A stretch of DNA of 64,000 nt from Octopus vulgaris (GCA_951406725.2 OX597836.1:15190001-15254000), one strand, 5' to 3'. Counted from the first letter of the stretch, positions 1,666 through 53,500 are shown. The notes: a model not told the origin generated them from the letters alone. Translations and numbers: made by a program.

Positions 1666-1671
1666 AATAAA
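1666..1671 (+). promoter_or_regulatory. Candidate polyadenylation signal of FBXW9-like gene
   Basis: AATAAA about 45 nt after the stop, followed by GT/T-rich sequence (gtttgttttgtttt). Confidence 0.45.
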
Positions 1672-2019
1672 TTTAAACATGTTTGTTTTGTTTTCCATAC
1701 TGCTCAACATTATTGCTTTTATTTGGAACTGGATTATAACATTATTGCTTTTATTTGGAACTGGATTACTTGCACACAAGCAAGAAGCAGTAGGTGAAGT
1801 CGTGGTTGGATTTCTATGTAGGAAGAGTCAACCTAAACCTTTTGGGTGGATTTGGCAGATGGAAACTCATAGAGGCATTAAGGTCGAAATCAATATTTCT
1901 CAAACCCCTTTTTAACCTGTGAACCTCCCTTTGATCCTTATTTTACTTGGATGTACCCACCTAGCCATCTGATGTTTAAAAAACCATATTATATTTTTAG
2001 AATTAGATATTTTTAGGAA

Positions 2020-4918: not shown

Positions 4919-5770
4919 ATTATTTGAGGGAATATTATTCCTAACTTACAGGGAAAAATTCAATTTAGAAATACTAAATCAAATTTCACAAACTATAATA
5001 TATATATATAAAAATTAGAAAAAAACACCTTTTATCAATTCAAAATGAACGATTAAATTATACCATCTAGAAAATTACTTATAATAGAAATATTAAAATT
5101 AAAATAACGATAATATACCGATGATTAAGTAAATTGCAAAATAATAAGAAAAACGTATATATTTGGAATATATATATAATGATTTTGCTTAGGTATACTA
5201 ATACTAATAACCGGTCATTAGAACTCAATATACATACGTTTCAGAATATAGCTTTAGGCAGAGTACAGAGCATAACATGAATTTATGGAATCACAAGATA
5301 AGAGGAGTTATAAAATCAATTTCATTAGCTTATAGCTGTTTCTGCTATAAAATGATGCATGAGCTTTCTGTTTTCAGTGCACTGCTTCTGATAGCTGAAA
5401 CAGCTGTAAGCTAATGGAGTGTGTAATTCTTCTCTTAATATAACAAACTATGTATATATATGCCTGTAATGATATTCCTCACTACTACTGATCCAAGCCA
5501 GGACAGTAACACTGTGGCTTACACCAGGGGGTAAACAACTGAGGAATAGAAAAGAGAGAGGAATTTAGTAAATGCTGCTTTGAAAGTGTAATGACTTATG
5601 TAATCTGTGATAAGAAAAGAATCCAGATTAAAGTTTTCTTTTCAAGTTCACCCACTAGATCCATTGCAAATCACTGCTTACAATATCTAAAGAACATTTA
5701 GAAAAACAAACTTAAATAAACAAAAAAAAAAAAAAAAAAATCCAGCTAAATAGTTTCCAGAGGCAACATT

Positions 5771-8676: not shown

Positions 8677-9558
8677 TCAGTTTTATAGAGAAAAAAGGGG
8701 GTACATAGTCTACTGGGTCTACCCTAAAATATTGCTGGCACCTTATTTGTAACAAAGATTTATTCAAGATGAACCATGTGTTGAGGGATCAAAGACCAGT
8801 CATAAGTGGTTGCCACCATAAAGTGGAATGGACACTCAATAAATATTGTTGGTTGGACAAGATCAATAAGTACTAAGGTAGCAAAACTGGGAGACTACCT
8901 TCTGATCCTGCCTGAATGAACTTCCTCCTCTCAGACCTCCCAACCCCATCTTCTTTTCAATCTATTCCTTGAACAACTGCCACCTCTCAAGGACCATTTC
9001 ATCACTGATCACCACTGGAACTATTTGGAATACCACAATTAACCTACTTAGATTACTACCTTCCTAGATCTTACCTTGGATTGCTGTTGGTTTTTATCTT
9101 CAAGTCAAAGTTACACTAACCGCCTTGCGGTGGTTTTAGGTGTTTTCATTCAATAAACACACACAACACCCAGTCTGGGAATCGAAACCGCGATCCTCCG
9201 ACCACGAATCCGCTGCCCTAACCACTGGGCCATTGCGCCTCCACATATGCGCTCTTTTAAAGCCTAGCCAGGCTAATGGGCCCAGTTTCCCGGTTTCAAT
9301 GGCATATGTGTTCCCCAGCTGGACGGGACACCAGTCCATCGCAGCGTTACTCATTTTTGCCAGCTGAGTGGACTGGAGCAACATGAAATGAAGTGTTTTG
9401 CTCAAGGACACAACGCGTCGCCTGGTCCAGGAATCGAAACCACAATCTTACGATCATGATGCTGACACCCTAACCACTAAGCCACGTGCCTCCACGCTTG
9501 GTCTGTAAATAAACTTCAAAGACTTATCAGTTTTTGTTTTAGAATATACAAGCTTTAC

Positions 9559-9681
9559 CAATTTTGCTCTGTCCTCCACAGACTGAAGGTACTGTTCCTT
9601 GCCAACGTCTTCTTCCTTAATATCTTTCTTCTTCAAGTATGGTTCAATAGAAGCATACTGGGCGTAAAAGTTGTTCATATC
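9559..9681 (-). CDS. SDHB: SDHB exon 6 ([41 protein letters not shown])
   Basis: Acceptor ttttctcttcag, donor gtaaag; 123 nt. Visible in ORF 9454..9726. Confidence 0.98.
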
Positions 9682-10570
9682 CTGAAGAGAAAAAAGAGAA
9701 TATCTCAGTAATGACATATAGATCACTGTAGCGAGAGTGAGAATTAAACCTTCCTGGTTGTTATTCTAAAGATACTCATAATAAAAAGACACCATACTTT
9801 CATACCCTTCAATACTACTACATGCCACTTAGTTGAGGAACCTTGTCTTATGGGTGTTTGGTGATCTCAACAGTGCTGGTGCCACAAAGGAAAAAAAGAA
9901 AAAAGGCATTCTATACACTCTGTTGGCATCATGAAGGGCATCCAGCCACGAAAACCATGCCAAAACAGACATAGGAGCTCAGAGCAGCCTTCTGGCTCGT
10001 CAGTTCATGCATAAACCATCTAACCCTTACCAGCATGGAAAAAACGTTAAATGGTGATGATGTTACTTTTTAGGGAGATTCAGTTCTGTGTTTGTAATAA
10101 AAGTAGAAGTAAAAACAAACATTGCTATTCTTCCCTGGGTTTGTTGACTTGCAAGCTACATGGCTACATTGATAGTGCTGGTAAGTTGTCTTGGGGTATA
10201 AGTCAACTGACTTCTGTGTTTTTTTTTTATGTAAATTTTGGTCAGAAAAATTTGATTTGTTATTCTAGAAAATGTGGTATTTGTATAGTTTCACATTAAT
10301 CTTGTAGTTTTGAGATTTCCTTAACCCCTATCAATTCATATGCTAGATAGGGGTTAAGGTATGAGGGAAGAGGAGCTACACGGCTACTCACGTTTAGGAG
10401 AAAGATAGTGATGGTATTTCAATGTTTACATTATATATATACATTGACTTGTATGCTAGAAAATATGGTAAATAAGCATTACATTTCACAGTGTAATCTG
10501 AATGCTTAAGAGTTATATAAACATTTTGTTTTAAACAACAAAAACATTGAATTCAGAAACTGGCACTTAC

Positions 10571-11248: not shown

Positions 11249-12428
11249 GCACCCACTACACTCTTAGAGTGGTTGGCATTAGGAAAGGCATCCAGCTGTA
11301 GAAACCAAGGCAAAATCAGATGAGCCTGGTACGGCTTACCAGTTTCTGTCAAACCGTCAAACCCATGCCAGAATGGGAAACGGACACTAAATGATGACGA
11401 TGAAGCAAGTCAATTACACTGACACTGGTGTGCTCATTTTATCGATCTTGAAAGGATGAAAGGCTAAGTCAGACATTAGCAGAATTTGAACTCATAATGC
11501 AAAGTGCCAGAAGAAATTCCACTGAGCATTTTGTCCGACGAACTCACAGATCTGCCAGTTCACTGCTTTCCCCACTTTTATAACAAGAGATTGTTTAACC
11601 CTTTTAGCATTTAAAATGGTCATAGCCAGAATAACGATCCAAAATAACCTCTTTAGAAGGGGTTCTCAACCACTTTTTTATCAGTGGTATATGGTGGTTG
11701 TTGTATTGAATATGCTGCCACACTCAAAGCCACCAAATTTCAAGCAGGGGCATAACAAAAGTTTTCCATTAAGATTTGTGGTTAAATTAATGAGTAAGAG
11801 TAATATTTATAATGAATCTGACATTTCTGACAGGTGTGCAGCGCACACCTGGAATATATGCCCTTGTTTTTTTATCTATGGACCCCTTTGATTATTATTT
11901 TATTCTGGTGGACCCCTATAACCATTTGATGATTAGAAAATAGTTTTATAGAAACTAAGGTGGCGAGCTGGCAAGATCGTTAGCACACCGGGTGAAATGC
12001 TTAGTGGTATTTCGTCTGCTGTTACATTCTGAGTTCAAATTCCGCCGAGGTCGACTTTGCCTTTCATCCTTTCGGGGTCGATTAAATAAGTACCAGTTAG
12101 ACACTGGGATCGATATAATCGACTTAATCCATTTGTCTGTCCTTGTTTGTCCCCTCTGTGTTTAGCCCCTTGTGGGTAGTAAAGAAATAGGTATTTCGCC
12201 TGCCGCTACGTTCTGAGTTCAAATTTCGCCGAGGTCAACTTTGCCTTTCATCCTTTCGGGGTCGATTAAATAAGTACCAGTTACGCACTGGGATCGATAT
12301 AATCGACTTAATCTGTTTGTCTGTCCTTGTTTGTCCCCTCTGTGTTTAGCCCCTTGTGAGCAATAAAGAAATATATAAACTAATTTTATAGAAACTTCTT
12401 TTAAAATTCCTATTTTGCTTTCCACACA

Positions 12429-26749: not shown

Positions 26750-27100
26750 ACCCAGTGGTTAGGGCAGCGGTCTCGCGGTCGGAGGATCATGGTTTCGATT
26801 CCCAGACTGGTCCTTGTGTGTGTTTATTGAGCGAAAACACCTACAGCTCCACGAGGCTCCGGCAGGGGATTGTGGCGACCCCTGTTGTACTCTTTCGCAC
26901 CAACTTTCTCCCACTCTTTCTTCCTGTTTCTTGTCCCCAACATTCTACGCAACCGCTGAGCCTGGATGCGCATTCATCCATCCGTCGATGCTCTCGGTGT
27001 CGGGGGTTGACCTGCTTTCTCTTCTGCGGGTCTTACGAATAGCAAAGGACCACGTTTCGGAGTTCTCTCACTACAGAAGACCGCTTCGCTCAACATCAAC
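26750..27100 (+). mobile_element. tRNA(Arg)-like SINE with (CAA/CAT/CAG)n tail; related heads at 9140-9497 (-) and 14280-14440 (-)
   Basis: cccagtggttagggcagcggtctcgcggtcggaggatcatggtttcgattccc is a tRNA-like head with A and B boxes. Confidence 0.7.
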
Positions 27101-27419
27101 ATCAATATCATCAGCAGCAGCAGCAGCAGTATCAACAACAAAGCTTGTACTAGTTTCTTAACAATTGTTAACAATACTGAACTGGGTTCCCCAAATATTT
27201 CAATTTAAACAACCAGCTTAAGGGGAAACAAACCAAGCACTAACCTTCAACTCTGACATGCAACATTGCAATCAGTTCAGAATTATTGTCAATGATTCTT
27301 CTGTGTTTTTGATTTGATTACTCAAAACATTCCAGCCATGTCACAGACACTTTTCAACAATGGAGTGAACAAGTGTATTGTTACATATACAGGTATAGGT
27401 ATATACAGGTGTGTGTGTG

Positions 27420-28249: not shown

Positions 28250-28800
28250 AACAAGGACAGACAAACGGATTAAGTCGATTACATCGACCCCAGTGCGTAA
28301 CTGGTACTTAATTTATCGACCCCGAAAGGATGAAAGGCAAAATCGACCTCGACGGAAATTGAACTCAGAACGTAGCAGCAGACAAAATACATATTTCTTT
28401 ACTACCCACAAGGGGCTAAACACAGTAGGGACAAACAAGGACAGACAAACGGATTAAGTCGATTACATGGACCCCAGTGCGTAACTGGTATTTAATTTAT
28501 TGACCCCGAAAGGATGAAAGGCAAAGTCGACCTCGACGGAAATTGAACTCAGAACGTAGCGGCAGACAAAATACATATTTCTTTACTACCCACAAGGGGC
28601 TAAACACAGTAGGGACAAACAAGGACAGACAAACGGATTAAGTCGATTACATCGACCCTAGTGCGTAACTGGTACTTAATTTATTGACCCCGAAAGGATG
28701 AAAGGCAAAGTCGACCTCGGCGGAAATTGAACTCAGAACGTAACGGCAGACGAAATACGGCTACGCATTTTGTCCGGCGTGCTAACGGTTCTGCCAGCTC
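28250..28800 (-). mobile_element. SINE family B, tandem trimer (other arrays 11958-12370, 45817-46500, 47333-47746, 52800-53315; singles 6940-7168, 15324-15625, 17461-17692, 29862-30078, 34466-34697, 39167-39400, 48279-48507, 51127-51358, 62665-62894)
   Basis: Head ggcggcgagctggcagaa with B-box-like gagttcaaattcc; about 184-nt tandem unit. Confidence 0.85.
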
Positions 28801-34000: not shown

Positions 34001-35167
34001 TTATTCATGCATTATTGGGATTTTTGATGACATGAGTATTTATTTTTATAATGACATTGTAGGATATGTACAAGAGACCAGATCTGGCTGGTTTGAACAT
34101 AAAACAGGTAGAATAATTAGGCTGGATATGACTGGTTTAAACACTAAAGGGTTAACCCTTTTCTTACCATATACTGGCATTAGAAAGGGCATCCAGCCAT
34201 AGAAACCATGCCAAAACAAACAGGGACCCGAACAGCCCTTCAGCTGGTTGGTTCCTGTCAAACTGTCCAGCCCCTGCTAGGTAAAATGCTTAGCTGCATT
34301 TCAACCTGTCTTTACTTTTAATTTAATTCAAATTAGGGTGAGGCTGACTGCTTTTCATCCTTTCGAGGTTGATAAATTAAGTACCAGTGAAACACTGGGG
34401 TCAATGGGATTAACTAGTCCCTCTCCCTTCAAATATAGTAGAAAGGATTATTAAGGATTATTAAAGGCGGTGAGCTGGCAGAAACGTTAGCACGCCGGGC
34501 AAAATGCTTAGCAGTATTTCGTCTGCCGCTACGTTCTGAGTTCAAATTCCGTCAAGGTCAACTTTGCCTTTCATCCTTTCGGGGTTGATAAATTAAGTAC
34601 CAGTTACGCACTAGGGTCGATATAATCGACTTAATTCTTTTGTCTGTCCTAGTTTGTCCCTTCTGTCTTTAGCCCCTTGTGGGCAGTAAAGAAATAAGAA
34701 AGGATTATTAAGCTGGTGTTTAAGGCAGTGAGCTGGTAAAATTGTTTCTGGACCCAACAAAATGCTTAGCATTATTTCTTCTAACTTTATATTCTGAGTT
34801 CAAATGCTGCTAAGGTTGACTCTACCTTTCATATTTTTGGGGTCAATAAAATAAGTATGAGTTCAGCACTGGGGTTGCTGTAATCAACTAAGCCCTTCCC
34901 TGAAATTGCTGGCCTTGTGCCAAAATTTGAAACCATTATTAAGCTGGTGTTTGGAACATAAATTAACATGAAATTTTTAAGAAAGGTTTTAATTTAGATT
35001 TATCTAAAATAGGAAATTTATATTTTTGACTGTGGCCATGCTGGAACACTGCCTTTTAGTCTAAGATACTGACCCCTAGAGTTATTCTTTGTGAGCCTGG
35101 TAGTTATACTATTGGCACCTTTTGTCAAACAGTTAAGTTACGCCTATGAAATTTTCAGCCCACCCTT

Positions 35168-35216
<49 letters not shown>

Positions 35217-35765
35217 TATATATATATCAATATGTATATATACACATATATGTATATCTATATATACATGTATATATATGTAGGTCCCGGGTTGAGTCGG
35301 GGTTAACCACAGTAAATAAGGTACTCAATACATAGCAGAGTAAATTAATTTATTTTATAGAAGGAGCTTCTACAGGACCAGAACTGTTTCATTCATATAT
35401 ACATATATGTATATATATGTATATATATATGTATATGTATGTGTACGTATGTATATATATATGTATGTATATGTGGGTATGTATGTATATGTATAGATAT
35501 ATGTGAATATGCGGGTGTGTATATGTGTATATATATATATGTAGATGTACAAGTGAGAGTCTCCCCACTTACCTAAAACTCTATTTTTCTATTTATATAT
35601 TTTTTTATTCTTTTATTTATTCTTTTATCTACTTTACCACTGATTCCTTTGACCACTTCCCTAATAATGACAGTTTTGCGCCATGCCTACCCCCAAAAAA
35701 GTCCCCCACCACCACCCATTTAAACCTGCCTAAATGTATAAATGCCAAAACAACTCTTGTCTACT

Positions 35766-35816
35766 AGCTTCCTGATGATTTCTTTTGAATGAAACAGTTC
35801 TGGTCCTGTAGAAGCT
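35766..35816 (+). ncRNA. Type I hammerhead ribozyme, canonical core
   Basis: AGCTTC-CTGATGA-tTTCttttGAAt-GAAA-CAG(ttctggtc)CTG-TA-GAAGCT. Stem I 6 bp, stem II 3 bp, stem III 4 bp, GUA cleavage triplet. Confidence 0.85.
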
Positions 35817-35828
35817 CCTCTATAAAAT

Positions 35829-35877
<49 letters not shown>

Positions 35878-36216
35878 TGTATACATATGTATAGATATAT
35901 ATATGTGTGTATGTGTATATATGTGTACGTGTGTGTGTGTGTGTGTGTGCAATTACGAATGAATGTATGTTTCAAGAAAGCCTATTTTTTGTCTCGTGGA
36001 TCACCAGGAGTTGGCGTCAAGAAAATGCCATGTGATGATATGCCATTATAATTACCATTATGCAACAACAATTATGAAATTAGACACTGACATATATACT
36101 TAGGGAATTTTGGGATATTCACACACTCACACATATATTTGTCTGAAATGAGATTTTTCACCCCTCACACCAATTTCACTGTACTCTTTCTGTGTGCATG
36201 AATGTATGTATGTATA

Positions 36217-36268
<52 letters not shown>

Positions 36269-36472
36269 ATCCAAACAAGAAAACACAAAAAAACACAACA
36301 ACGTGAGGACGTGGAACAAATATAGTATTATTGGACACTCAGGAAAGAAGGGAAGAAGGAGGGTTTAACGTTTCGAGCGGGGAAAGATCCAGAGAAGGGA
36401 AGACAGAGGAAAAAAATCGCCAACGCTACACACGAGGTCACATATATAAATATGTATATATATATATATATG

Positions 36473-36521
<49 letters not shown>

Positions 36522-36549
36522 ATATGTATATATATGTATATGTATATGA

Positions 36550-36601
<52 letters not shown>

Positions 36602-36825
36602 TTATCTATAAATAAGGATAACATACTGGCCACTTGATAAGATCGATATTTAAATATTGATATTATCCTTATTTATAAATTTATATAGTTCGTCATCGTA
36701 TTCACTGCGGTGTTTATTTTGATCATATCGCGCTTGGAGATGTTTGGCGGGCAATTTAAGCCACTCTAGTACATACGTCATATATATGTATGTATGAGTG
36801 TTCGTATATGTAAGTATAATGTATG

Positions 36826-36861
<36 letters not shown>

Positions 36862-36876
36862 GTGCTTATCTGGTAT

Positions 36877-36935
36877 ATTCAACTGAAGAAGGCAGAGCTT
36901 CTCTGAAGCAAAGCCAGAAATCCAGGATCTTGAAT
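36877..36935 (+). ncRNA. Type I hammerhead ribozyme with quasi-palindromic stem III (dimer type)
   Basis: ATTCAA-CTGAAGA-aGGC...GCCa-GAAA-TCCAGGA-TC-TTGAAT. Stem I is a perfect 6 bp; AUC triplet. Confidence 0.8.
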
Positions 36936-38343
36936 TATCCAGTAAAATCTTTTTTGCTAGTTTATTTTGTTTCTCTGTCTTCTCGTCTGGTGCGATATGA
37001 ACATTTAAGGTGGTTTTAGGATCAGGGTTTTGACTGCTACTTCAGTATGGTGGTATCTCTCAGATACCCTAATTTATAGTTTTATATATATATATATATC
37101 TGTGGCAAAGGCTGACTTGGAAACAAGGGCATGCAGTCTATGATGCAGGCCAATCATCAAGACAAAGTGAGTGGGACAGTGCACTCTTACTCTCTCCACC
37201 CTTAAACAATTTTTGTTCTTCCCCCACCACCTCTGTCTGTGAAAGTGATGTGAAATAATTTTAATGTGAGAAAATACACTTCTACAAACCAGCCACACTT
37301 TGGGCTTGATGCCTCTCTCCACTGGACTTGATGGTCCTCCATTAGTCTGCCATGATGACTTTTATTGGTTACGAGAGAAATCAGAGAAAATAATAGAACC
37401 TACATATAAAGAGCTACCGTAAATCCTCGAGTATAATCTGCACTTTTTTCCCAAAATTTAAAGGGCAAAATCCTTAGTGCGTACCAACATGCCGAGCAGG
37501 AACACGAGGTCTCACTCAACAACATAGAAGTTAAAATCTTGTCCACACATAGAACAGACGCAACGCTTAGACAAATTACAGAAACTACACACATAATAGA
37601 AGATAAACCTAGCCTGAATAGGAAACTGGGATGGAACACTAGCACACACCACAGCATATGACAGAAGTAGATACCCATAAACTGGTAACAATATAAACAA
37701 AACTAAAAACAATAAAATACACAGATAGATAAACAAATGGAAGTAAATAACTATATACATTAAAAATAATAATAATAATAATAAAAAAATAATAATAAGT
37801 AGGTGTAAACACATGAACAAAATAAAAATAAACAAAAACAAATTACACGAACATATATAAACAGGAGATACAAATATTACAGACACTCCCCCCCACACAC
37901 ACACACACACTAACTAAACATAGACACACATAGAGGTATACACATGCGCAAATGGAGACACATACAATAGGAATACAAAATGGTTGACCGTCAGTAAGGA
38001 GAGACACACAAATAAGAAGGAAGAAAGCAAAGGACCACTGATGAGGTCACAGGCGTGTGATGAAAGAACTTTGGCCGAAATAAGATTAAGATTAATGTAA
38101 AAAATAAATAACGCTGAAGCAAAATAACACTAAATATATAGTGTGTGTGTTTTTATTGGCTAAATTGGCACAATGACCATTCCTAAATACAACGATAAAA
38201 TATTACAGAGATGTACTTGCATAGCAAGTGATTTGATCTGAGATCGTGTGCTGAAACGAAAACAATTGCAACGTGGAAGGTGTTTGTAAGCCATTTAAGA
38301 AACACACAAAAGCCGTTCATTTCACTTCAACATTTAAGTTTAA

Positions 38344-38394
38344 TTTGTCAAAATATTTTCGTCGCTATAAGACCGCAACCTGTTCACTGACAAA
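38344..38394 (-). ncRNA. Inverted partner copy of the G3-C8 hammerhead-like motif
   Basis: Reverse complement reads TTTGTCA-GTGAACA-gGTTGC(ggtcttata)GCGAC-GAA-AATATT-T-TGACAAA. Confidence 0.65.
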
Positions 38395-38416
38395 AATCCG
38401 GGATGCAGCACGAATT

Positions 38417-38466
38417 TTTGTCAGTGAACAGGTCGCAGATTTTAGCGACGAAAATATTTTGACAAA
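38417..38466 (+). ncRNA. Minimal hammerhead-like ribozyme with G3-C8 core variant (GUGAACA)
   Basis: TTTGTCA-GTGAACA-gGTCGC(agatttta)GCGAC-GAA-AATATT-T-TGACAAA. Stem I 7 bp, stem II 5 bp, palindromic stem III. Confidence 0.7.
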
Positions 38467-40427
38467 TTAAACTATGTTGAAGTGAATCGAACGGCTTTTG
38501 TGTGTTTCTTAAATGGCTTACAAACACCTTCCAACGATAAAATATATATTCTTCAGCTCTGGATAATTGTGCAAAATATACCAGAATCAGTAATATAACA
38601 AACATGCAAATTGATTAAACACCCATTTCTCATCAAAATCTCTCCACTATGAGGAAAGCTTTAAGTTCTTTGAATAAGGAAGTCTTTGATCTTAGTTGCA
38701 CAGGGCAGTAAAAACATCAATACTTTAGAAGAAAAAATGTTGATAGCATGTTTGCTGGCTTAACATGAGTGGAAGGCAAACAGCAAAATTTCTACTTTCT
38801 CTCTCTTGACTCCCCACTCTTTTTATTTTGTCTCCCTTTTTCACCTTCCTTCTCCAAGAGAATAATAGATTATGAAGAAAATAACCCTTCTCTTTTTCTT
38901 AATTATGATTGAAAGCAAATAGAAAAAAATTCTGCTTCCTTCTGCCTTTCTCTCATTGACTTCCCACTCTTTTTCATTCTTTTTCCTGCTCCCTGCTTGA
39001 AGGGAAAAGAAAAGCAATTAATCCTTTGCTTTTTCTTTCCTTGCTAAGCAAACAGGATCTTTTTCTACTTACCCTTCATAAATAATATGGATTGCTGATA
39101 ATTCATACTAAGAACTAAAGGTATGGGAAATATGAGGATGGTAAAAATTATCCATAATTATCCATAAGGCGGTGAGCTGGCAGAAACGTTAGCACACTGG
39201 GCGAAATGCTTAGCGGTATTTCGTCTGCCGTTACGTTCTGAGTTCAAATTCCGCCGAGGTCGACTTTGCTTTTCATCCTTTCGGGGTCGATAAATTAAGT
39301 ACCAGTTACGCACTGGAGTTAATGTAATCGACTTAATACCTATGTCTGTCCTGGTTTGTACCCTCTGTGTTTAGCCCCTTGTGGGTAATAAAGAAATAGG
39401 TAAAAATTATTCATAATTAATTTTATATCACACAAAAATTATTTACCCTGGAATAAAAGTAAGGCAGGCATTGCATACATACACCCTTCACCCCTGATAT
39501 ATGCATGTGTGTGTGTTTGTAATTAATAATATCAGGGTGATAAAGACTTTAGAAATTTTTACTACCAGTGGCCTAGCATATAGAAAAGTTAGTCAATAGG
39601 CTATATATTATTCATATAAAATACAGTGTACATTTAAACACATTAAGAGGTTTCCATCATAGGAATCCTTTATGCTAGAAAGAACAGCTAAAGTCCAAAC
39701 CACTAATTAGGGATAAATTCTTGAAGGGAATGAAAAATAAAAACATTTAATATCTCTTTCCTGGACCATGGTTTCTGACTTATTTTAGTAAATAAAATTA
39801 TTTCCATATATATTATATCATGATGATGATGATATATATATATAAATATATCATTATATTTATATATATTATATCATAATTGTAATACCATATTATAATA
39901 TAATAACTCTAATATATATTTAACCCTATTAGCATTCTGTAGGAAATTACTACTTATATCATTAAGTAATTAAATGAAATTAAACTCAGCAAAAATGTTA
40001 TATCATTATTGTTGATTATTATTTAATGACAATAATCACAAATATCATCAGTCCAGCATCAAAAAGGTTAATATTATTTCGACTGATTTTGCAAATGTAA
40101 CTTTAAATAATGAGCATTCCTACACATGTAGCAAGCTTAATGTCTCATTAAGTTATATTTATAAATTATCTAACCACCCTCAATCTATAATTAGGAATTT
40201 AGTTGAGAAGATATGCTTGAGAATTTCTAACGAACTAGCAAAACAAGTCATATTTTCAATGAAACCTTACATTATATATATGTGTGTGTGTGTATGTGTG
40301 TGTATATATATATTACAGGGTAAAAGTTTTTCAATTTTCTCCTGGTTTACGGTATTAATGTTATTTTGCGGTTATAGCTTTTGGCTGTTATTGTGGGTGA
40401 ATGGCCTATTATGGCCGTTCCTTGATT

Positions 40428-40465
<38 letters not shown>

Positions 40466-40617
40466 TATATTAAATTAGAGATAAAACCACTATTAGGCAA
40501 ATCAAACAGTGAAAAACATAAGCCAATACATAAAATTAATTTAATTTATATTATTTTCAATATATATCAAGAGTATTAAAAGTTTAATAAAAGATAAAGA
40601 GTAAAACACTACGATCG

Positions 40618-40654
<37 letters not shown>

Positions 40655-40715
40655 CATGATAGATCTCTAGCCACTAAACCTTTTCTATTTTCTCTCCCTG
40701 TTTATTTCTGTGTTC

Positions 40716-40751
40716 CTTTCTGTCAACGAGCGTAGGCTAGGAACGTAAAAG
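40716..40751 (+). ncRNA. Degenerate minimal hammerhead motif
   Basis: CTTT-CTGTCAA-cGAGC(gtag)GCTa-GGA-ACGT-A-AAAG. Same architecture as 43003-43037 with core mutations. Confidence 0.4.
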
Positions 40752-40954
40752 ACTTTCTCACTTCCTGAGTGTTAAACTTATACATCTATTTGTTGTTTAC
40801 ACATCTGTCTTCGATTTTTGGTTTTTGGTAATATATATATATATATAATTGAAGAAATTCAACAAAAAGGAGTACAGTTGCACAATTATTTTTAAATCAC
40901 TGCAACTGTTTCCACACAGTATAGTTCTCCAGAAATACAGGTATTTGATTATAC

Positions 40955-41700
40955 AACCGTTTGTGGAACCCTAAGGCTAAAACAATACCTGTTGTCATAG
41001 GTGCCCTAGAAATGATAGCAAAAGGGGCTGATTGCTACCTAGCTCAGGTACCAGGAAATCCAAACGTCGCAGAAATTCAAAAAACAGTGCTCATGTGAAC
41101 TACCCATATCCTATGCAAAATGCTTTCTATGAGTGGCTGTGTGGTAAGTAGCTTGCTTACCAACCACATGGTTCTGGGTTCAGTCTCACTGCGTGGCACC
41201 TTGGGCAAGTGTCTTCTGCTATAGCCTCGGGCCGACCAAAGCCTTGTGAGTGGATTTGGTAGACGGAAACTGGAAGAAGCCCATCGTATATATGTATATA
41301 TATGTGTATGTGTGTGTATATGTTTGTGTGTTTGTTTGTCCCCCCGCAACATCGCTTGACAACCGATGCTGGTGTGTTTACGTCCCCGTAACTTAGCAGT
41401 TCGACCTAAGAGACCGATAGAATAAGTACTAGGCTTACAAAGAATAAGTCCTGGGGTCGATTTGCTCAACTAAAGGCGGTGCTCCAGCATGGCCACAGTC
41501 AAATGACTGAAACAAGTAAAAGAGTAAAAAGAGTATTCTCTAGAACAATACTTTGTGCAACACCAAATATATGGTATCCTAATCATAACATGAACTTGAA
41601 CTTCTAACTTGTTGTCTCTTGACATCTCCGGGTGAGACTTTGAGTCAACTTGTACAAGTATAAAGCAAAAGTCAAACATATAATAATAATAATAATAATT
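40955..41700 (+). mobile_element. 3' remnant of a restriction-like-endonuclease non-LTR element (R4/Dong-like), split by a SINE, with (TAA)n tail
   Basis: LWNPKAKTIPVVIGALEMI..AEIQKTVLM*TTHILCKML (PxVIGALG-type C-terminus); taataataat tail at about 41680-41700. Confidence 0.6.
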
Positions 41701-42261
41701 CTTGGATGGAATTTACAAACATTTAATGCATTGCTATGACAGCTCAATTCAACTCTGAAAAACTGGTTCACCAGTCAGCATTATTAGACTGTGGCTGGCA
41801 TAAGGGAATAGGAGCTTTATTTGCTTATTCAAAACATTTTCATAAACAAATTTAAAAGACAGGTGCAGATGTGGCTGTGTTGTAAGAAGCTTGCTTCCCA
41901 TCCACAAGGTTCCGAGTTCAGTCCCACTGCATGGCACCTTGGTGTCTTCTACTACAGCCTTGGGCTAACCAAAGCCTTGTAAGTGGATTTGGTAAACAGA
42001 AACTGAAAGAAGCCTATTGTATATATATATATATATGTATATATTTTATGTGTGTGACTTTGTGTTTGTCCCCACCACCCTTGCCTGACAACCAATGTTG
42101 GTATGTTTATGTCCCTGTAACTTAATGGTTTGGCAAAAGAGGCCGATGAGATAAATATCAAGCTTACAAAGAATAAGTTCTGGGGTTGATTTGTCCAACT
42201 AAAAGGCAGTACTCCAGCATGACCACAGTTAAATGTCTAAAACAAGTAAAAGAATAAAAGA

Positions 42262-42313
<52 letters not shown>

Positions 42314-42465
42314 GAAGAAATGAGGTTTTATATTTACAGATATTTATTAGTATGTTACATATTAGTAAGTTACATACTAATAAATATCTCTAAATATAAA
42401 ACCATCCAGATTTATGAGTACCTCATTTCTTCTAATATATAATACTTGTACATCATCTCCAAACC

Positions 42466-42505
<40 letters not shown>

Positions 42506-42566
42506 AATTTTTTGCGTAATGAGATAAAAAACCAAGGCTGTGTAGATATTTGAACATTTATAGATA

Positions 42567-42619
42567 GGTCTTACAGCTGTTTCCAGGATATTAATTAATT
42601 ATATCTCTTCATCGGAGCC
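42567..42619 (-). ncRNA. Hammerhead motif with GAAAC-AGCT-GTA palindromic stem III
   Basis: Reverse complement reads ggct-CCGATGA-agaGATAT(aattaatta)ATATCctg-GAAAC-AGCT-GTA-agacc. Confidence 0.6.
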
Positions 42620-43002
42620 GGTGTGAGAGGATGGTTAAGTAATAGTTAATTTAGATAGGATACAAAATAGAGAGTGAGGCGGAGGAAAGAAAATAGATGT
42701 AAGATATGTAGGGATATTGAATTTGTAGATCCATTTTTTAGGCAGAATAGTATATATTTAAGATTCCAATAACTTATGAATAAAATCCAACAGAATTTAA
42801 AATGGGTCGACCGCTCGAAACGTTAAACCCTCCTTCTTCCCTTCCTTCCTGAGCGTCCAATAATACTATATTTGTTCCACGTCCTCGCATTGTTGCGTTT
42901 TCTCTTTGTGTTTTCATGTTTGGATTAACTATGACCTCATGTGTACCGTTGGCGATTTTTTTTTCCTCTGTCTTCCCTTCTCTGGATCTTTCCTTCTCCT
43001 AT

Positions 43003-43037
43003 GTTTCCGCCGAAGAGCTCTGCTCGAAACGTTAAAC
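43003..43037 (+). ncRNA. Minimal Penelope-type hammerhead motif (core mutated to CCGCCGA)
   Basis: GTTT-CCGCCGA-aGAGC(tct)GCTC-GAA-ACGT-T-AAAC. The 3' half is repeated at 42811-42828. Confidence 0.6.
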
Positions 43038-46000
43038 CCTCCTTCTTTCCTTAGCATCTAATAATACTATATTTGTTCCAAGTCCTCGCATTGTTGTGTT
43101 TTTTTGTGCTTTCTTGTTTGGATTAACTTTATATATATATATATATATACACACATATATGAGTGTATGTATGAGTAAATGTTATGTACACTGTGTGTAC
43201 CTATGATTTTCTTATATGGGAATTTTTCTCTCTTTCTCTGGACACACACAAATACACATTGATGTGGATTAAAGATAATTAAAATTCTTATAAACAAGGA
43301 AAAAACATTTAGAAATATGTGATATCAGAATTCTTCCAAAATTATATATTTGACCTTTAACCTTCAGCCATTGACATGGGTGGGGTATTTTTCCTTTTTT
43401 TTTGCTTTTTTTTAAAATTTTTTCTTTCATCATCTTTGTGTGATTCATTGAATTACTGGCAGCTTCAGAACTGGTGTGTCCCTTAGGACTGAGACCACTC
43501 CTTTGGAAGCAATAGGGGGAGCTATAAGACATTTTCATTTCCTCTCTCTCATAAACATGCACACATGTCACAATCATATTCCTTCAGCCTTCAACCACTT
43601 TTGTCCCTCACTTCAGCATACAAGCACCTCCACTTAACTCACCCACTCACTCACCTCCATCTCCATTAACACCATCTTCAACCACAACATGTATCAGATC
43701 CCATCTGCCTCAATCCCCCACCACCACTACAAACCCTCTTCTACTCACACCCTTCCACCTGTTGCTCAGTTGAACCCAAAGTATCCTTCCTCACCCACTC
43801 CTATATTCTAACCAGTCAATGAGTGCATATGTGTATGTGTATACAAATATTCTTTTACTTGATTCAGATATTTCACTGAGGCCATACTGGAGCACTTCCC
43901 TGAAGAATTTTAGTCAAAGAAATTGACCCCATTACTTTTTTTACTTTTTTTATTTTTTAAGCCTGCTATTTATTATATCAATCTCTTTAACTGAATCACT
44001 AAGTTGCAGGGACATAAACACAGACACAAAGACACACATACATAGATAAATTATAGATATATAATTGATATAGGATAAAATTTTTTCGGGAAAAAATTTT
44101 TATCAATGGCCAGCATATCAAAAAATGCCTTTAAAGGTAAAATTTATACATAATTTACAAGATAAGGGCCTTATCTGCCCTTATCTTGTAAATTATATAT
44201 ATATTATATTAATATTAGGGAAGTTATTTCCGAGTTCACAGGGGAGAGAAGTTCAATTTTGTGGTAGTAAATTGAGTTACTCACTGTATTATATACATAT
44301 ATATAGATAGGTTTAAGAGACAGAATCACCCTCAAGCAACTCAATCATCATTGAATGACATTATCCACAATAGGTACATATAGGACTAAATATTAAAATT
44401 TACCAAAATCAATACCTACAATTCTTATTACAAATTATCAAAATTAATACCTTCAATTCTTATTTCAAATCATATACTTTACTACACGTGTTTCATGACA
44501 ACATATTCTTCGATATTGCTGAAATAGAATGTCTCTAAATACAACACCATATTAAAACGATTATATGTATGTGTATATATATGTATGTGTGTGTGTATGT
44601 TTGTGTGTCTGTGTTTGTCCCCCTAGCATTGCTTGACAACCAATGCTGGTGTGTTTATGTCCCCGTCACTTAGCGGTTCGGCAAAAGAGACCGATAGAAT
44701 AAGTACTGGGCTTACAAAGAATAAGTCCCGGGGTCGATTTGCTCGACTAAAGGTGGTGCTCCAGCATGGCCGCAGTCAAATGACTGAAACAATTAAAAGA
44801 GTAAAGAGTATATATATATAAAATACAAAAAGGGGACAAAAACACAAAACATCCAGACAGGTGATACAAAAAAGGGACAACAAAACATCCAGACAGACGA
44901 TACAAGGAAAACAAGGACGGATCGTTCGGAGTTTTCTTTCCTCAGTCGATTTCCAGATTATCTTTGCAATTTTGGCTGGTTAATATATATATGTATACAC
45001 ACACAAACACACACACACACACACATGTATGTCCGTACACATGCTTAATATATTTACTTTCACTTTTAAATAAGAACTGGGTTTACAAAGAGATTTGTTT
45101 GTTTCTATTTGGCAGTTCAATATATGTATGAAAAAAAGAGGTAGAATTTATTCAAATTTTTGGAATTATAAAACAAAAGTTGTAGAGGAAGAATAAAGCT
45201 GCAAATAATAATAATAATAATAAAATAAATAAATAAACCACAAAAAAATATTTTTTTCATGTTAGTTCAAATAATACTGGAGATGACTGAATGGGGAAAA
45301 GGAAAAAAAACAAAACAAGTTTATTTCACAACCTAACATATGTATATATTTACACACACACACACACACACCAATACATATTCTGCACAAAAGAACCAAA
45401 CTTAAACAACAAACTTTGAAGTGAAAGGTAGGTTGAGAAGCCTATATAGGTAGATGGATGATAGAGGGTGGCAAGCTACAGGAGTTAGGTTCCACTCCCA
45501 CCCGGCTCCTCCCCTGTCTCATTCACCCAGTTATCCTTCTATTCCTGCATCACATTCCATCTGCTTCTTATTGCTTTTACTCTGTGGCATTTCTCATTCT
45601 GGTATCATTTTTCTCTTTCATTTATTTCTTATTTTACTGGGGGTTTTTTTTTTTTGTTTTGTTTTGGCATGTTTTTTTTTTTTTTTGCTTTCTTTTACTT
45701 CCTGTATTGTGAAATTCAGAGATTCCCTCTTGGCTGCCTGCTGTGTGAAGTAGACATTGACAAACAAACACAGATAACACAACAACTAACTATAGCTGTG
45801 TAGGCTTTGTAACTGTAGGTATTTCATCTGTCCTATGTTCTGAGTTCAAATTCCACTGAGGTTGACTTTGCCTTTCATCCTTTCAGGGTCAATTAAATAA
45901 GTACCAGTTATGCACTTGGGTTGATATAATCAACTTAGTCAGTTTGTCTGTCCTTGTTTGTCCCTTCTGTGTTTAGCCCTTTGTGGGTAGTAAAGAAATA

Positions 46001-48587
46001 GGTATTTTGTCTGCCGCTACGTTCTGAGTTCAAATTCCACTGAGGTCGACTTTGCCTTTCATCCTTTCAGGGTTGATTAAATTGTACCAGTTATGCACTG
46101 AGGTCAATATAATCGACTTAGTCGTTTGTCTGTCCTTGTTTGTCCCTTCTATGTTTAGCCCGTTGTGGGTAGTAAAGAAATAGGTCTTTTCCTTTTGATG
46201 GACGGAATTTTCTAGTTAACTAAAAAATTTGAAACTTCGTATACTGGTAGAATGTGTCAAAAGAAAACATTATTGTAAACAAAATTGTAATTTGTAAGTT
46301 TAACATCATTTAATTCTACGAATTTTAACCATTTTGTCTGCCATTACGTTTTGAGTTCAAATTCCACCGAGGTCAACTTTGCCTTTCATCCTTTCAGGGT
46401 CAATTAAATAAGTACCAGTTACGCACTGAGGTCGAATAATCAACTTAATCTGTTTGTATGTCCTTTCTGTGTTTAGCCCCATGTGGGTAGTAAAGAAATA
46501 GGTTTCAGGGTCAGGAATAAAAGAAGAATCAGATGTAGTGTGCAAGAAAGAAGACTTCAAATGATATGAACATATGATGTGTATGGTTGAGGAATTGCTG
46601 CATAAAGAATTACTAATTACTTATCCCTTTCGTTACCATATTTCTGTTGAAATTCATTGCCTTTCACCACCATCATCATCATTTAACATCCATTGTCCAT
46701 GCTGGCATGGGTTGGACAGTTTGACCAGAGCTGCTACATTCTGAGTTAAAAGAATTCTGCTGCTACGTTCTGCGTTCAAATTCCGCCAAGGTCAACTTTG
46801 CCTTCCATCCTTTCGGGGTCGATTTAATAAGTACCAGTTACACACTGAGATCGATATAATCGACTTAATCCGTTTGTCTGTCCTTGCTTGTCCCCTCTAT
46901 GTTTAGCTCCTTGTGGGCAATAAAGGAATAAGTTTGACCAGGGCTGATAAGCTGAGTGGCTGCACCAGACTCCAGTCTAATTTGGCATGGTTTCTACAGC
47001 TGGATGTCCTTCCTAATGCCAACCACTCCAAGAGTGTAATGGATGATTTTTTGCGCCACTGGCACCGGTGCCAGTTGCATGACTATAGTATCTACTGAGA
47101 CTATGATTTCACTTGGCTTGATGGGTCTTCTACTCAAGTACAGCATATTGCCAAAGGTCTTGGTTGTTTGTCATTGCCTCATGAGGCCCAATGCTCAAAA
47201 GGTGCTTTTTTACATACCTCCAGCACGGGTGCTAGTTACACAATCCTGGCATCGCCCACATTGCCTCCACGAGACTCAATTTTGAAAATAATGACTAATT
47301 TAGTAAAATAGCTTTGTCATTGTTATTAAGCTGGTGGCGAGCTGGCAGAAATGTTAGCACGCAGGGTGAAATGCTTAGCGGTATTTCGTCTGCCATTACG
47401 TTCTGAGTTCAAATTCCACCAAGGTCGACTTTGCCTTTCATCCTTTCGGGGTCGAAAAATAAGGTACCAGTTTTACACTAGGGTTGATGTAATCGACTTA
47501 ATCCCTTTGTCTGTCCTTGTTTGTCCCCCCTATGTTTAGCCCCTTGTGGGCAGTAAAGAAATAGGTATTTTGTCTGTCGTTACATTCCAAGTTCAAATTC
47601 TGCCGAGGTCGACTTTGCCTTTCATCCTTTCGGGGTCGAAAAATAAGGTACCAGTTTCACACTGGGGTCGATGTAATCGACTTAATCCCTTTGTCTGTCC
47701 TTGTTTGTCCCCACTATGTTTAGCCCCTTGTGGGCAGTAAAGAAATATATTAAGCTGGTGTTTGGAACATAAATTAATGTTAAATTTGATCGAAGGTATT
47801 GTACTCAAGAGGAGCTGTCCGCCACATCAGAAGTGTTAAGGCCGCACCCTCTCATGCAGAGGGTTGGCCTGCAAGAGTCCTGCATCAGTGTCACATAAAA
47901 AGCGCTCATGCCAGTGCCATGTTAAGGGCACCCAGCACACACTGTAAAGTGGTTGGCATTAGGAAGGGCATCCAGCCATAGAAAACCAAGCCAAATCAGG
48001 CTGGAGCTTGATGCAGCTTCCCAGCTTACCAGTTCTGGTCTAACTGTCCAACTCATGCCAGCATGGAAAACCCTAAAGGATGATGATGATGATGATGATG
48101 ATCACTGTAATCATTTAGCATTTAGATTACTTTGTCAAATGTAATGTTTGTAGGCGTAGGAGTGGCTGTGTGGTAAGTAGCTTGCTTACCAACCACATGG
48201 TTCCGGGTTCAGTCCCACTGTGTGGCACCTTGGGCAAGTGTCTACTACTGAGAAGGGAATATGTTGAATAAATTTAACCGGCGAGCTGGCAGAATCGTTA
48301 GCACCCCGGGCGAAATGCGTAGCCGTATTTCGTCTGTCGTTACGTTCCGAGTTGAAATTCCGCCGAGGTCGACTTTGCCTTTCATCCTTTCGGGGTCGAT
48401 AAATTAAGAACCAGTTACGCACTGGGGTCGATGTAATCGACTTAATCCGTTTGTCTGTCCTTGTTTGTCCCCTCTGTGTTTAGCCCCTTGTGGGTAGTAA
48501 AGAAATAAATATGTTGAATAAAATCATAATTAACTGGTTCTCCTGTATTTTCTTTTACCCAAAAGCCGGAACTTTTCAGCACCTCCT

Positions 48588-51529: not shown

Positions 51530-53500
51530 AAAGCAATTAAGGATATGAAAATAGGGAAAGTCCCTGGCCCATCAGGAATCTCCACAGTGATGTTTGAAAT
51601 ATCTGGCAAAGTGAGATTTGGCCTCGTTACATGTATAGTTAATCCGGTTGTCCATGAGGAAGTCATACCCAACAACTGGTATAGCAGTCAACTGCTACAA
51701 AGGTAAAGGTGACACCTTATACAGAAATAATTACAAAGGTATCAAATTGCTGAACCACACCATGAAAGTTACAGAAAGGATCATAGCTCGATTAATTAGG
51801 AAGAGAGTTAGCCCACATGAGATGCAGTTTGATTTTATGCCAAGAACAAGCACTACCGATGCTGTCTTCCTGGTGAGGCAACTGTAGGAGAAGTATTTAA
51901 CCAAAAATGGATCTCTGTACTTGGCTTTTATTGACATTGAGAAAGCCTTTGACAGGATTTCCCACTCCCTTAACCCTTTTGTTACCAGCCCAGCTGAAAC
52001 CAGCTCTAGCTCTGAATACAAATGTTTTGTTTTCATAAGTTTTGAATTAAAATCTTCCATCAAACCTTAGTCACAATTTATGTTCCTAACACTAGCTTAA
52101 CCCTTTTGTTACTGTATTTATTTTGAGATGTTCTGTGTTTCTTTCAATTACTTTAAATATAACAAAATATTTAGTAAAATAACTTAGTTATCATTAAGCT
52201 AGTGTTAGGAACATAAATTGTGACTAAGGTTTGGTAGAAGATTTTAATTCAAAACTTATGTAAACAAGACATTTGTACTCAGAGCCAGAGCCAGTTTCAG
52301 CCGGGTTGGTAACGAAAGGGTTAATGATAACTAAGTTATTTTACAAAATTCTTTGTTATATTTAAAGTAATTGAAAGAAACACAGAGCATCTCAAAATAA
52401 ATACAGTAATGAAAGGGTTAACTAGTGAGAAATGTGGAATCTAGATAGGTGAGTTGTTGGTGAGAGCTATACAAGCCATGTACAAGGATGCGGTCAGTAA
52501 GGTGAAAGTTAGCAATGAATATAATGAATTTAGTGTACAGCAATGAATTTAGTGTTCACTAAGGACCAGTTCTTAGGCTCCTCTTGTTTAACACAGTCCT
52601 CCAGACCACAACTGGTATGCCCTTGGGTGCTCCTCAGTGCCAGTGCCCCGCAACCATTTGTCACTTGATGTACACTTATATTCTTTACAAAATCCGATGG
52701 CACACCCAAACAGAAAATACAATTAAAAGTATAAGGGGGAAAAATTATATCCAGGTTACACTGCGGCACACCTAGCATTGTCCCATGTGCTGTGGCATAC
52801 CTATTTCTTTACTACCCACAAGGGGCTAAACACAGAGGGGGACAAACAAGGACAGACAAATGGATTAAGTTGATTACATCGACCCCAGTGCGTAACTGGT
52901 ACTGATTTAATCGACCCCGAAAGGATGAAAGACAAAGTCGACCTCGGCGGAATTTGAACTCAGAACATAACGGCAGACGAAATACCTATTTCTTTACTAC
53001 CCACAAGGGGCTAAACATAGAGGGGGCAAACAAGGACAGACAAACGGATTAAGTCAATAACATCGACCCCAGTGCATAACTGGTACTTATTTAATTGACC
53101 CCGAAAGGATGAAAGGCAAAGTCGACCTCGGCGGAATTTGAACTCAGAACATAACGGCAGACGAAATACCTATTTCTTTACTACCCACAAGGGCTAAACA
53201 CAGAGGGGACAAACAAGGACAGACAAATGGATTAAGTCGATTACATCGACCCCAGTGCATAACTGGTACTTATTTAATCGACCCCGAAAGGATGAAAGGC
53301 AAAGTCGACCTTGGCCCAGTTGCAGAGCACTACTCTATGCTGCTGACTTTGTTCTTATTGCTGAATCACTAACAGAATGAGAGAAGAAATTTCAGGTGTG
53401 GAAGCAGGGTCTGGAATCAAAGGGTCTTAGAGTAAATTTAGCAAATACCAAAGTCCTAGTGAGTAGGAAGATGGTCCTGTTCTATATGTAGAAAAGGTGT
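51530..53500 (+). pseudogene. Decayed RTE-clade LINE reverse transcriptase, interrupted by nested MITEs and a SINE array
   Basis: KGKGD..NYKGIKLLNHTMKV..QFDFMP..STTDAVF..AFIDIEKAFD (51660-51960), then LYAADFVLIAES..GLRVNLANTKVL (about 53333-53465), with stops and frameshifts. Confidence 0.85.
51970..52421. mobile_element. TTAA MITE with an inverted copy of itself nested at an internal TTAA (52097-52324)
   Basis: The outer element is split at actagc-TTAA-tgataac; the inner copy is flanked by TTAA on both sides. Confidence 0.8.

What the first reader, a model, noticed from the sequence alone, without database searches (positions are those of the whole stretch)
35100..44560. Hotspot of diverse hammerhead-bearing elements targeting (TA)n microsatellites
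Seen within about 9.5 kb: at least five distinct full or near-full HHR folds plus orphan minus-strand 3' halves of the form GAAAC-palindrome-GTH (GAAAC-CATG-GTC about 39764-39775, GAAAC-GATC-GTA about 40610-40621, GAAAC-ACGT-GTA about 44483-44494, degenerate GAAAC-AGTT-GCA about 40901-40912) and an orphan 5' part (CTGATGA-GGTCA..TGGCC-GAAA, 38038-38080). The loop tetramers differ (CATG, GATC, ACGT, AGCT) yet stay self-complementary. Inference: a radiation of dimer-dependent ribozyme retroelements with TA-repeat target preference, where the palindrome may give family-specific dimer pairing.
Basis: partly seen in the sequence, partly recalled or inferred. Interest (0 to 1): 0.75.

Follow-up and report, generated by a model that had tools for sequence, protein, structure and literature searches.

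The report
Penelope retroelement ends carrying hammerhead ribozymes
The hammerhead-like motifs are real and are the clipped tail ends of ten high-copy repeat families piled up among TA repeats, three tied directly to Penelope-like jumping-gene proteins and the rest likely so; this is a known kind of element, self-cutting is only predicted, and the palindromic loops alone do not give each family a private pairing code.

Summary
All motifs are at the stated places and exceed shuffles (4 palindromic halves vs 0.08; 3 strict full folds vs 0.03). They belong to ten repeat families. The four 'orphan halves' are 5'-truncated copies whose relatives carry whole type-I hammerheads. The 'orphan 5' part' at 38038 is a complete fold in another register. 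Three families are tied to RT + C-terminal GIY-YIG ORFs: A and F are Hydra-type, D is Neptune/Nematis-type. They show pseudo-LTR tandems, inversions, optional tails and (TA)n junctions (128 of 201 copies vs 7.7% background). PLE hammerheads with palindromic helix III, dimer cleavage and (TA)n-inserting Hydra elements, including an octopus one, are in print (PMC4209133, PMC8557442). Palindromy is selected across families (13 of 14 clusters), but loops recur in unrelated clusters, the window's ACGT is CpG decay, and family D has a non-palindromic loop. The local cluster is real (8 hits vs mean 0.73, max 3 in 60 tiles) but was picked post hoc in a genome with roughly 140,000 such motifs. This scan noted the same system on other DNA of this genome. 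Verdict: new members of a known kind.

The parts
35281..35395 (-). Family A (Hydra-type PLE): short inverted copy, starts inside helix II, carries 3' half of the hammerhead and the optional tail
   Evidence: 99% to family copy; tail/no-tail ends bimodal at about 43 and 108 nt after GAAA
35505..35829 (+). Family A: longer 5'-truncated copy without tail; full type-I hammerhead at 35766-35816 (6-bp helix I, U.U at base of helix II, 4-bp helix III with 8-nt loop)
   Evidence: ORF-linked tandem in L299
36262..36432 (-). Family B end with minimal helix III (A-CG-U); 5' core deleted
36622..36687 (+). Tail fragment of family C
   Evidence: 97% match
36855..37088 (+). Family C end; full hammerhead at 36877-36935 with odd-length pseudo-palindromic helix III (TCC-A-GGA) and A.A at base of helix II
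   Evidence: no ORF link found
37437..38197 (+). Family D (Neptune/Nematis-type PLE): endonuclease C-terminus 37437-37652, 3' UTR, full hammerhead at about 38035-38074 (loop GAAC, not palindromic); ends against a foldback element, not (TA)n
39536..39803 (-). Family E end with tail, truncated in loop II; 3' half at 39764-39775 (CATG)
   Evidence: 12 of 24 relatives keep a 5' core, mostly TTGA-N-GA
40070..40270 (+). Remnant of a PLE thumb-region ORF, family not assigned
   Evidence: 41% to P0001 residues 395-464, E 2.7e-5
40302..40429 (+). Fragment of a further hammerhead family, downstream of its ribozyme (ribozyme absent here)
   Evidence: 86% to L027
40470..40623 (-). Family F (Hydra-type) end, truncated 2 nt before GAAA; 3' half at 40610-40621 (GATC); (TA)n on both sides
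   Evidence: ORF in L031
40650..40830 (+). Family G end; family core CTGT-N-GA (A6U) with minimal helix III; window copy further decayed
40841..40964 (-). Family H end, truncated in loop II; 3' half at 40901-40912 (AGTT; family AATT)
42498..42766 (-). Family J end; near-full hammerhead at about 42568-42619 (core CCGATGA, loop AGCT, helix I damaged)
42811..43130 (+). Family B partial tandem (GAAA at 42817 and 43026); cores lost or mutated
44196..44566 (-). Family K end with tail, truncated in helix II; 3' half at 44483-44494 (ACGT, decayed from GCGC)

Best explanation
The region holds 5'-truncated ends of ten high-copy repeat families next to (TA)n, each family carrying a type-I hammerhead fold, three tied directly to Penelope-like RT/GIY-YIG ORFs and seven likely pseudo-LTRs of such elements or their non-coding derivatives. 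Mechanism: the GIY-YIG endonuclease nicks in or at (TA)n and the RT primes on the element RNA 35-250 nt downstream of the ribozyme, then mostly stops early (inferred from published PLE biology). This gives short ends, inverted pairs and optional tails (shown), and leaves half ribozymes wherever the stop falls inside the fold (shown). Repeated insertion into the same microsatellites gives the cluster (inferred). In tandem transcripts two copies would form a double hammerhead through the palindromic helix III and process the precursor RNA (predicted; published model). Selection acts on palindromy within each active family; genomic copies then decay neutrally.
For: Relatives of every half carry the 5' core: F 22 of 28, K 23 of 24, H 15 of 24, E 12 of 24. 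L299 is a partial tandem: hammerhead, tail, 722-aa ORF, hammerhead, tail, all sense. That ORF has YRDD, RWR, DKT, CxCX5C, CxxC and CxH, the Hydra diagnostics of PMC8557442 section 11; 68-70 of 70 aligned sequences share each motif. Atlas neighbours carry RVT_1 and GIY-YIG on part of their members. Family D: a 483-aa RT-EN frame upstream of the hammerhead with an inverted copy (L319). Family F: ORF joined to an inverted end and followed by the family's 3' UTR. (TA)3 at the 3' junction in 128 of 201 copies vs 7.7% background and 6 of 56 for a SINE-like control. In unbiased tiles 21 of 27 motifs have (TA)4 within 200 nt downstream vs 21-24%. Monomer helix III +2.4 to +2.9, homodimer -6.4 to -13.3 kcal/mol for C, E, F, H, J, K.
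Against: No ORF link was found for B, C, E, G, H, J, K in the loci fetched (output was cut). Pfam does not recognise P0001 and hits RVT_1 in only 2 of 70 and GIY-YIG in 1 of 70 members; family D RVT_1 is below cut-off. No tree was built. The window folds are no more stable than shuffles (z +0.55 to -0.89). Family D (loop GAAC, dimer +2.4), an H subfamily (ATTT, 6 of 24, linked to other diagnostic changes) and family G (A6U core) amplified without the expected features. No clean empty site showed that (TA)n preceded insertion. Cleavage is untested.
Confidence: 0.88

Rival explanations
1. The palindromic loop is a family-specific code, selected so that co-resident families do not cross-dimerise.
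For: 13 of 14 multi-copy clusters with a 6-nt insert are palindromic by majority. Sister-like families F and K share helix I but differ by a double change (GATC vs GCGC). Heterodimer helix III among E, F, H, J, K is +4.3 to -3.6 kcal/mol vs -6.4 to -13.3 for homodimers. Some clusters that share a loop have incompatible helix I (AATT and ACGT groups).
Against: Loops recur: 8 distinct among 14 clusters vs 9.5 expected at random. Five AGCT motifs cross-pair helix I by 2-5 bp, and two of three ATAT motifs by 4-5 bp. The AGTT variant pairs better with family J (-8.7) than with itself (-3.4). Compensatory drift under selection for homodimers gives the same incompatibility as a by-product.
Confidence: 0.1
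2. Most of the short families are non-autonomous retrozyme-like RNAs that borrow PLE proteins, not truncated autonomous PLEs.
For: B, C, E and G were seen only as short copies; incidental B and G copies start within about 120 nt upstream of the cut (references were short, which caps this). A preprint argues that animal retrozymes derive from pLTRs (10.64898/2026.07.22.740005, part 1 of 5 read).
Against: No tandem array with a hammerhead in each unit lies in the region. A, D and F have ORFs. This rival can hold for some families without changing the main reading.
Confidence: 0.3
3. The (TA)n tracts are made at insertion (RT slippage or repeat addition) rather than being pre-existing targets.
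For: In 13 of 64 classifiable junctions the flank beyond the TA run lies inside a repeat whose paralogues lack a microsatellite there. Family A copies about 98% identical to the window copy have runs of 16-602 nt.
Against: In 40 of 64 junctions the neighbour normally abuts a microsatellite. The two-flank test on 55 junctions gave 9 hits, 8 low-complexity and 1 internal to a family D inverted pair, and no clean empty site, so the 13 are better read as other truncated elements in the same tract.
Confidence: 0.12
4. The motifs are chance matches in AT-rich repetitive DNA.
For: Short motifs; non-palindromic GAAAC-N4-GTH is common (71 in tiles vs 51 in shuffles).
Against: 32 strict folds in 600 kb vs 1, 4, 0 in shuffles; 28 palindromic halves vs mean 2; family copies complete the folds.
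Confidence: 0.01

Closest known systems
Hydra clade of C-terminal EN+ Penelope-like elements, incl. Hydra-1_Obim (Craig et al. 2021, PMC8557442; passages, sections 6 and 11, supplement part 2 of 59 and search hits read)
   Same: RT then GIY-YIG; RW[K/R], DKT, CxCX5C, CxxC and CxH motifs; canonical type-I hammerhead near the 3' end; (TA)n insertion; 5' truncation, partial tandems, inverted copies, optional tail. File S2 already shows the extra T on both sides of helix II and short, family-variable helix III loops.
   Different: Family A is longer (about 4.8 kb between tandem tails, with a microsatellite-rich 3' UTR, vs generally under 3 kb), has a tail of about 65 nt (30-40 bp described for Naiads) and an 8-nt loop III. 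None of the ten families matches the Hydra-1_Obim hammerhead row by eye. Helix II inserts reach about 78 nt.
[quoted passage not shown]
   Same: Type I, palindromic 15.2-16.2 and loop 3, extra base after A9, long helix II, many divergent families per genome, mostly solo truncated copies, opposite-strand pairs, 2-bp helix I as in D. virilis (families F, K), proposed dimer cleavage.
   Different: The G10.1-C11.1 pair is replaced by U.U, A.A or A.G in seven families. Core variants U4C (B, J), A6U (G) and U3 (E) are abundant; family D's loop is not palindromic.
PLE-associated small hammerhead variants that cleave as dimers (Lunse, Weinberg and Breaker, RNA Biol 14:1499; not held; known only from its title and citation in PMC6765202 and PMC6466107, passages read)
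   Same: Diminished helix III, PLE association and dimer cleavage, as the title and the reviews state.
   Different: Cannot say; whether it covers these core variants or heterodimers was not seen.
Metazoan non-LTR retrozymes (10.64898/2026.07.22.740005, part 1 of 5 read; PMC7229834 search listing only)
   Same: Type-I hammerhead, short non-coding units, proposed PLE origin.
   Different: Defined as tandem arrays with a hammerhead in each unit; the copies here are dispersed ends.

Membership tests
Hydra-clade PLE (family A) | Single ORF with RT and C-terminal GIY-YIG endonuclease | tested here: met
   722-aa frame with YRDD and a C-terminal VY..YIG core; Pfam weak: RVT_1 2 of 70, GIY-YIG 1 of 70 members; Atlas neighbours carry both on part of their members
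Hydra-clade PLE (family A) | RWK motif and DKG changed to DKT | tested here: met
   RWR and DKT in P0001; RW[KR] 69 of 70, DK[TS] 68 of 70, DKG 0 of 70
Hydra-clade PLE (family A) | CxCX5C linker, CxxC and CxH motifs, CCHH absent | tested here: met
   CxCX5C 68 of 70, CxxC 70, CxH 69; one cysteine only inside the GIY-YIG core of P0001 (read)
Hydra-clade PLE (family A) | Sense-strand hammerhead in pLTR, partial tandem or inversion, (TA)n insertion | tested here: met
   L299 tandem; inverted pairs; (TA)3 at junction 29 of 29
Hydra-clade PLE (family A) | Placement in the Hydra clade by RT phylogeny | not tested
   No tree built; assignment rests on motifs
Hydra-clade PLE (family F) | Hydra-type endonuclease linked in sense to the hammerhead | tested here: met
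   Broken ORF with CxC linker (second site mutated), CxxC and CxH in L031; family 3' UTR matches reach to about 650 nt from the ORF end; one locus only
Neptune/Nematis-type PLE (family D) | [quoted passage not shown] | tested here: met
   483-aa frame in L319 read by eye; RVT_1 E 7e-4, below cut-off; Neptune vs Nematis not resolved
PLE (families B, C, E, G, H, J, K) | Own RT-EN ORF upstream of the hammerhead | tested here: inconclusive
   None found in the fetched loci; flanks mostly 1.5 kb
PLE (families C, E, H, J, K) | Fixed 3' ends with optional tail, 5' truncation, inverted pairs | tested here: met
   Clustered or bimodal ends (K alignments often break early); opposite-strand pairs in search tables
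PLE minimal/short-helix-III hammerhead | Type-I fold with CUGANGA, GAAA, UH core | tested here: met
   Families A, C, D, F, H, K; variant cores in B, J, G, E
PLE minimal/short-helix-III hammerhead | Palindromic 15.2-16.2 and loop 3 | tested here: met
   Met in B, E, F, G, H, J and commonest K loop; imperfect in A and C; not met in D
PLE minimal/short-helix-III hammerhead | G10.1-C11.1 pair | tested here: not met
   U.U, A.A or A.G in A, C, E, F, H, J, K; the same T..T pattern is in published Hydra rows; met in B, D, G after the extra base
PLE minimal/short-helix-III hammerhead | Self-cleavage as a dimer | not testable with these tools
   Only helix energies; no raw RNA reads listed
Non-LTR retrozyme | Tandem array with a hammerhead in each unit | tested here: not met
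   No such array in the region; family B partial tandem only
Naiad PLE | N-terminal endonuclease, no canonical hammerhead | tested here: not met
   A and D have C-terminal EN and canonical-order hammerheads

The most novel reading that the evidence does not exclude
Helix I and helix III together sort the genome's dozens of Penelope-like families into ribozyme compatibility groups: elements stacked in one TA tract and read into one transcript cut each other only within a group (for example the AGCT group with TCT/AGA helix I), so short passengers and crippled families are processed in trans by matching partners.
Probability: 0.1. Interest if true: 0.6.

Novelty: new member of a known kind. Interest (0 to 1): 0.27.

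Why it matters
As found, it adds ten families and a natural panel of loop, core and helix II variants to a known system, in a genome with roughly 90,000-200,000 strict motifs (extrapolated from 600 kb). The role of PLE hammerheads is still open (PMC8557442). Families that amplified with a non-palindromic loop (D, H-ATTT) or an altered core (G, B, J) allow a direct test of whether dimer cleavage is needed for transposition. If cross-family compatibility groups existed, they would show RNA-level cooperation or exclusion among transposons.

Tried and rejected
Rfam scan: no hammerhead family among the 150 matches shown; the listed hits were mostly microsatellite artefacts. First descriptor missed family D because it lacked the extra base after A9 (fixed). 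PDB sequence searches found nothing. Structure prediction was not obtained, machine busy. De novo (TA)n synthesis: one-flank hints not upheld by the two-flank test. 5' starts at the predicted cut site: no pile-up among incidental copies (small numbers, short references). Linking family K to the ORF piece in L323: rejected, a TA run and another repeat lie between; the ORF downstream of J in L251 was not tied to J. My first label 'Neptune' for family A was dropped after testing Hydra motifs. The inverted fragments at 42312-42513 show no hammerhead. Lunse et al. could not be read. Paper searches listed nothing whose title or abstract start concerns heterodimers between PLE families; this does not show it is not in print.
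Full report
Setting. The window is G000:C23:15190001-15254000 in a 2.8-Gb assembly of 227 contigs. It is AT-rich and full of microsatellites. That it is a cephalopod is my inference from genome size and repeat content, not a tool result.

Observation. In 35100-44560 there are 4 GAAAC-N4-GTH halves, all palindromic, against a shuffle mean of 0.08 (max 2 in 200), and 3 strict full folds against 0.03 (max 1 in 100). In 60 spaced 10-kb tiles (16 from the window's own contig) there are 32 strict folds against 1, 4 and 0 in three shuffles, and 28 of 71 halves are palindromic against a shuffle mean of 2. This extrapolates to about 140,000 motifs (90,000-197,000), a rough figure because tiles were not drawn in proportion to contig length.

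Hotspot. A library of 27 tile motifs (5 of 32 dropped as non-canonical-looking) finds 8 fragments in the region against a tile mean of 0.73 and maximum of 3; four of the window's six tiles have none. The 8 are about 6 events. A negative-binomial fit gives 1e-4 for 8 and 1e-3 for 6, that is tens to hundreds of such tiles genome-wide. The region has 21 (TA)5 runs; 12 of 60 tiles have as many, and counts correlate weakly with TA runs (rho 0.30, p 0.018). The cluster is real, in the upper tail, and was chosen after the fact.

What the pieces are. Eight genome searches each returned 40-50 scored matches from 307-3670 candidates, of which 24-29 non-self loci per family were examined. These are the copies most like the window's, which favours the window's variants. 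Each orphan half is the truncated end of a family with a whole type-I fold: 5' core present in F 22 of 28, K 23 of 24, H 15 of 24, E 12 of 24. The motif at 38038 is complete in another register: extra base, 5-bp helix II, GAAA, GAAC, UC, helix I. Families B and G were identified from incidental copies. This gives ten families (map).

Link to Penelope-like elements. L299 shows hammerhead, tail, a 722-aa open frame, hammerhead, tail on one strand. The protein has 765 homologues at E<=1e-20 among 7994 scored. Pfam support is weak and PDB searches are blank. The Hydra diagnostics in PMC8557442 section 11 are met in the protein and in 68-70 of 70 aligned sequences. Family D has an RT-EN frame with CX4CxxC and two cysteines in the nuclease core, upstream of its hammerhead, with an inverted copy (L319); the window keeps its last 72 codons. 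Family F has a broken Hydra-type ORF joined to an inverted end in L031. For the other seven families no ORF link was found; their assignment rests on end structure and ribozyme type.

TA association. (TA)3 lies at the 3' junction in A 29 of 29, F 23 of 28, D 14 of 24, E 15 of 24, K 6 of 24, H 9 of 24, J 16 of 24, C 16 of 24. K, H and J are undercounts because alignments break at indels or references stop inside the tail. Background is 7.7%; a SINE-like control gives 6 of 56 and 3 of 72. Unbiased tiles give 21 of 27 within 200 nt against 21-24%. Ends are bimodal, with or without a tail, as drawn in PMC8557442 Fig. 2. Whether the tract existed before insertion is not shown: 40 of 64 classifiable junctions (of 160 collected) have neighbours that normally abut microsatellites and 13 do not, and the two-flank test found no clean empty site among 55.

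Loop palindromes. Exact palindromes: F 26 of 28, E 21 of 24, J 21 of 24, H 14 of 24, K 8 of 24; none in A, C or D. A has a central CTAG in a long loop, C an odd-length pseudo-palindrome, D none. In K, 20 of 24 loops derive from CGCGCG by C>T or G>A, so the window's ACGT is decay. In H, 6 of 24 copies with ATTT share other diagnostic changes, so that subfamily spread with a non-palindromic loop. Over 1.5 Mb of loci the descriptor gave 291 hits, 24 multi-copy clusters and 22 singletons; some small clusters are one locus fetched twice. Of 14 clusters with a 6-nt insert, 13 are palindromic by majority and one is tied. So palindromy is maintained in active families, as published (PMC4209133).

Dimer and code. 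Helix III as a monomer hairpin costs +2.4 to +2.9 kcal/mol in C, E, F, H, J, K and is favourable as a homodimer (-6.4 to -13.3). A is -1.4 as a monomer; B/G dimer -1.7; D dimer +2.4. Heterodimers among E, F, H, J, K are +4.3 to -3.6, so different loops would not pair well. But loops are reused: 8 distinct among 14 clusters against 9.5 expected at random. In a double hammerhead helix I is also formed between copies (inference from the published model). Five AGCT motifs cross-pair helix I by 2-5 bp, while the AATT and ACGT groups do not. Incompatibility is therefore partial and needs no selection for specificity.

Mechanism. Shown: family structure, ORF links for three families, fixed 3' ends downstream of the predicted cut, truncation, inversion, TA adjacency. 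Inferred: endonuclease preference for (TA)n, nesting, RT stops inside the fold. Predicted: dimer cleavage of tandem precursors. Because copies extend past the cut site, the template held an uncut or re-ligated ribozyme, which fits the circular-template model of PMC4209133 but does not prove it. No pile-up of 5' starts at the cut was seen.

Comparison with print. PMC4209133 describes many variable hammerhead families per genome, palindromic loop 3, solo truncated copies, opposite-strand pairs and weak dimer cleavage. PMC8557442 describes Hydra elements with hammerheads and (TA)n insertion, including one from an octopus; its File S2 already shows the T..T at the base of helix II and family-variable loops. 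Lunse et al. could not be read and may cover the core variants. Earlier scan notes on other DNA of this genome reached the same reading and gave the Hydra lead, which I then tested.

Verdict. What remains is a useful panel of natural variants and a low-probability compatibility-group idea. Interest 0.27.

Noticed in passing
window 40650-40830 (+); tiles L069-L128: Family G is very abundant (16 BLAST hits in 60 tiles) and has core CTGT-N-GA, with position 7 free and A6 replaced by U; related family B and family J mostly have CCGA (U4C).
   Followed up: partly
   Followed up: partly
window 38225-38520: A long foldback (MITE-like) element sits directly after the family D end.
   Followed up: no
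window 42312-42513: Inverted fragments of a repeat that partly matches the family D 3' UTR, flanked by (TA)n; no hammerhead seen.
   Followed up: partly
window 44815-44975 (-): A further repeat end beside TA with a GCC-GAAA motif in relatives (L218, L199); possibly another hammerhead family.
   Followed up: no
window 9454-9765 (-) and about 26950-27160 (+): A probable exon resembling succinate dehydrogenase iron-sulfur subunit (recalled resemblance; Pfam gave no matching hit) and a possible first exon of a divergent gene; the region studied may be intronic.
   Followed up: partly
window 12006-12373, 28250-28758, 45816-46190, 47380-47747, 52797-53315: Tandem copies of a 182-184 bp SINE-like repeat that contains GAAACGTT but no hammerhead; used as a control for TA adjacency.
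   Followed up: partly
L065-L068, L299: The family A 3' UTR is about 2.5 kb of mixed TA/CA microsatellite, so the element itself carries microsatellites to new sites.
   Followed up: no
window 5397-5408 (+): Another GAAAC-AGCT-GTA half outside the region with no family match in the tile library.
   Followed up: no
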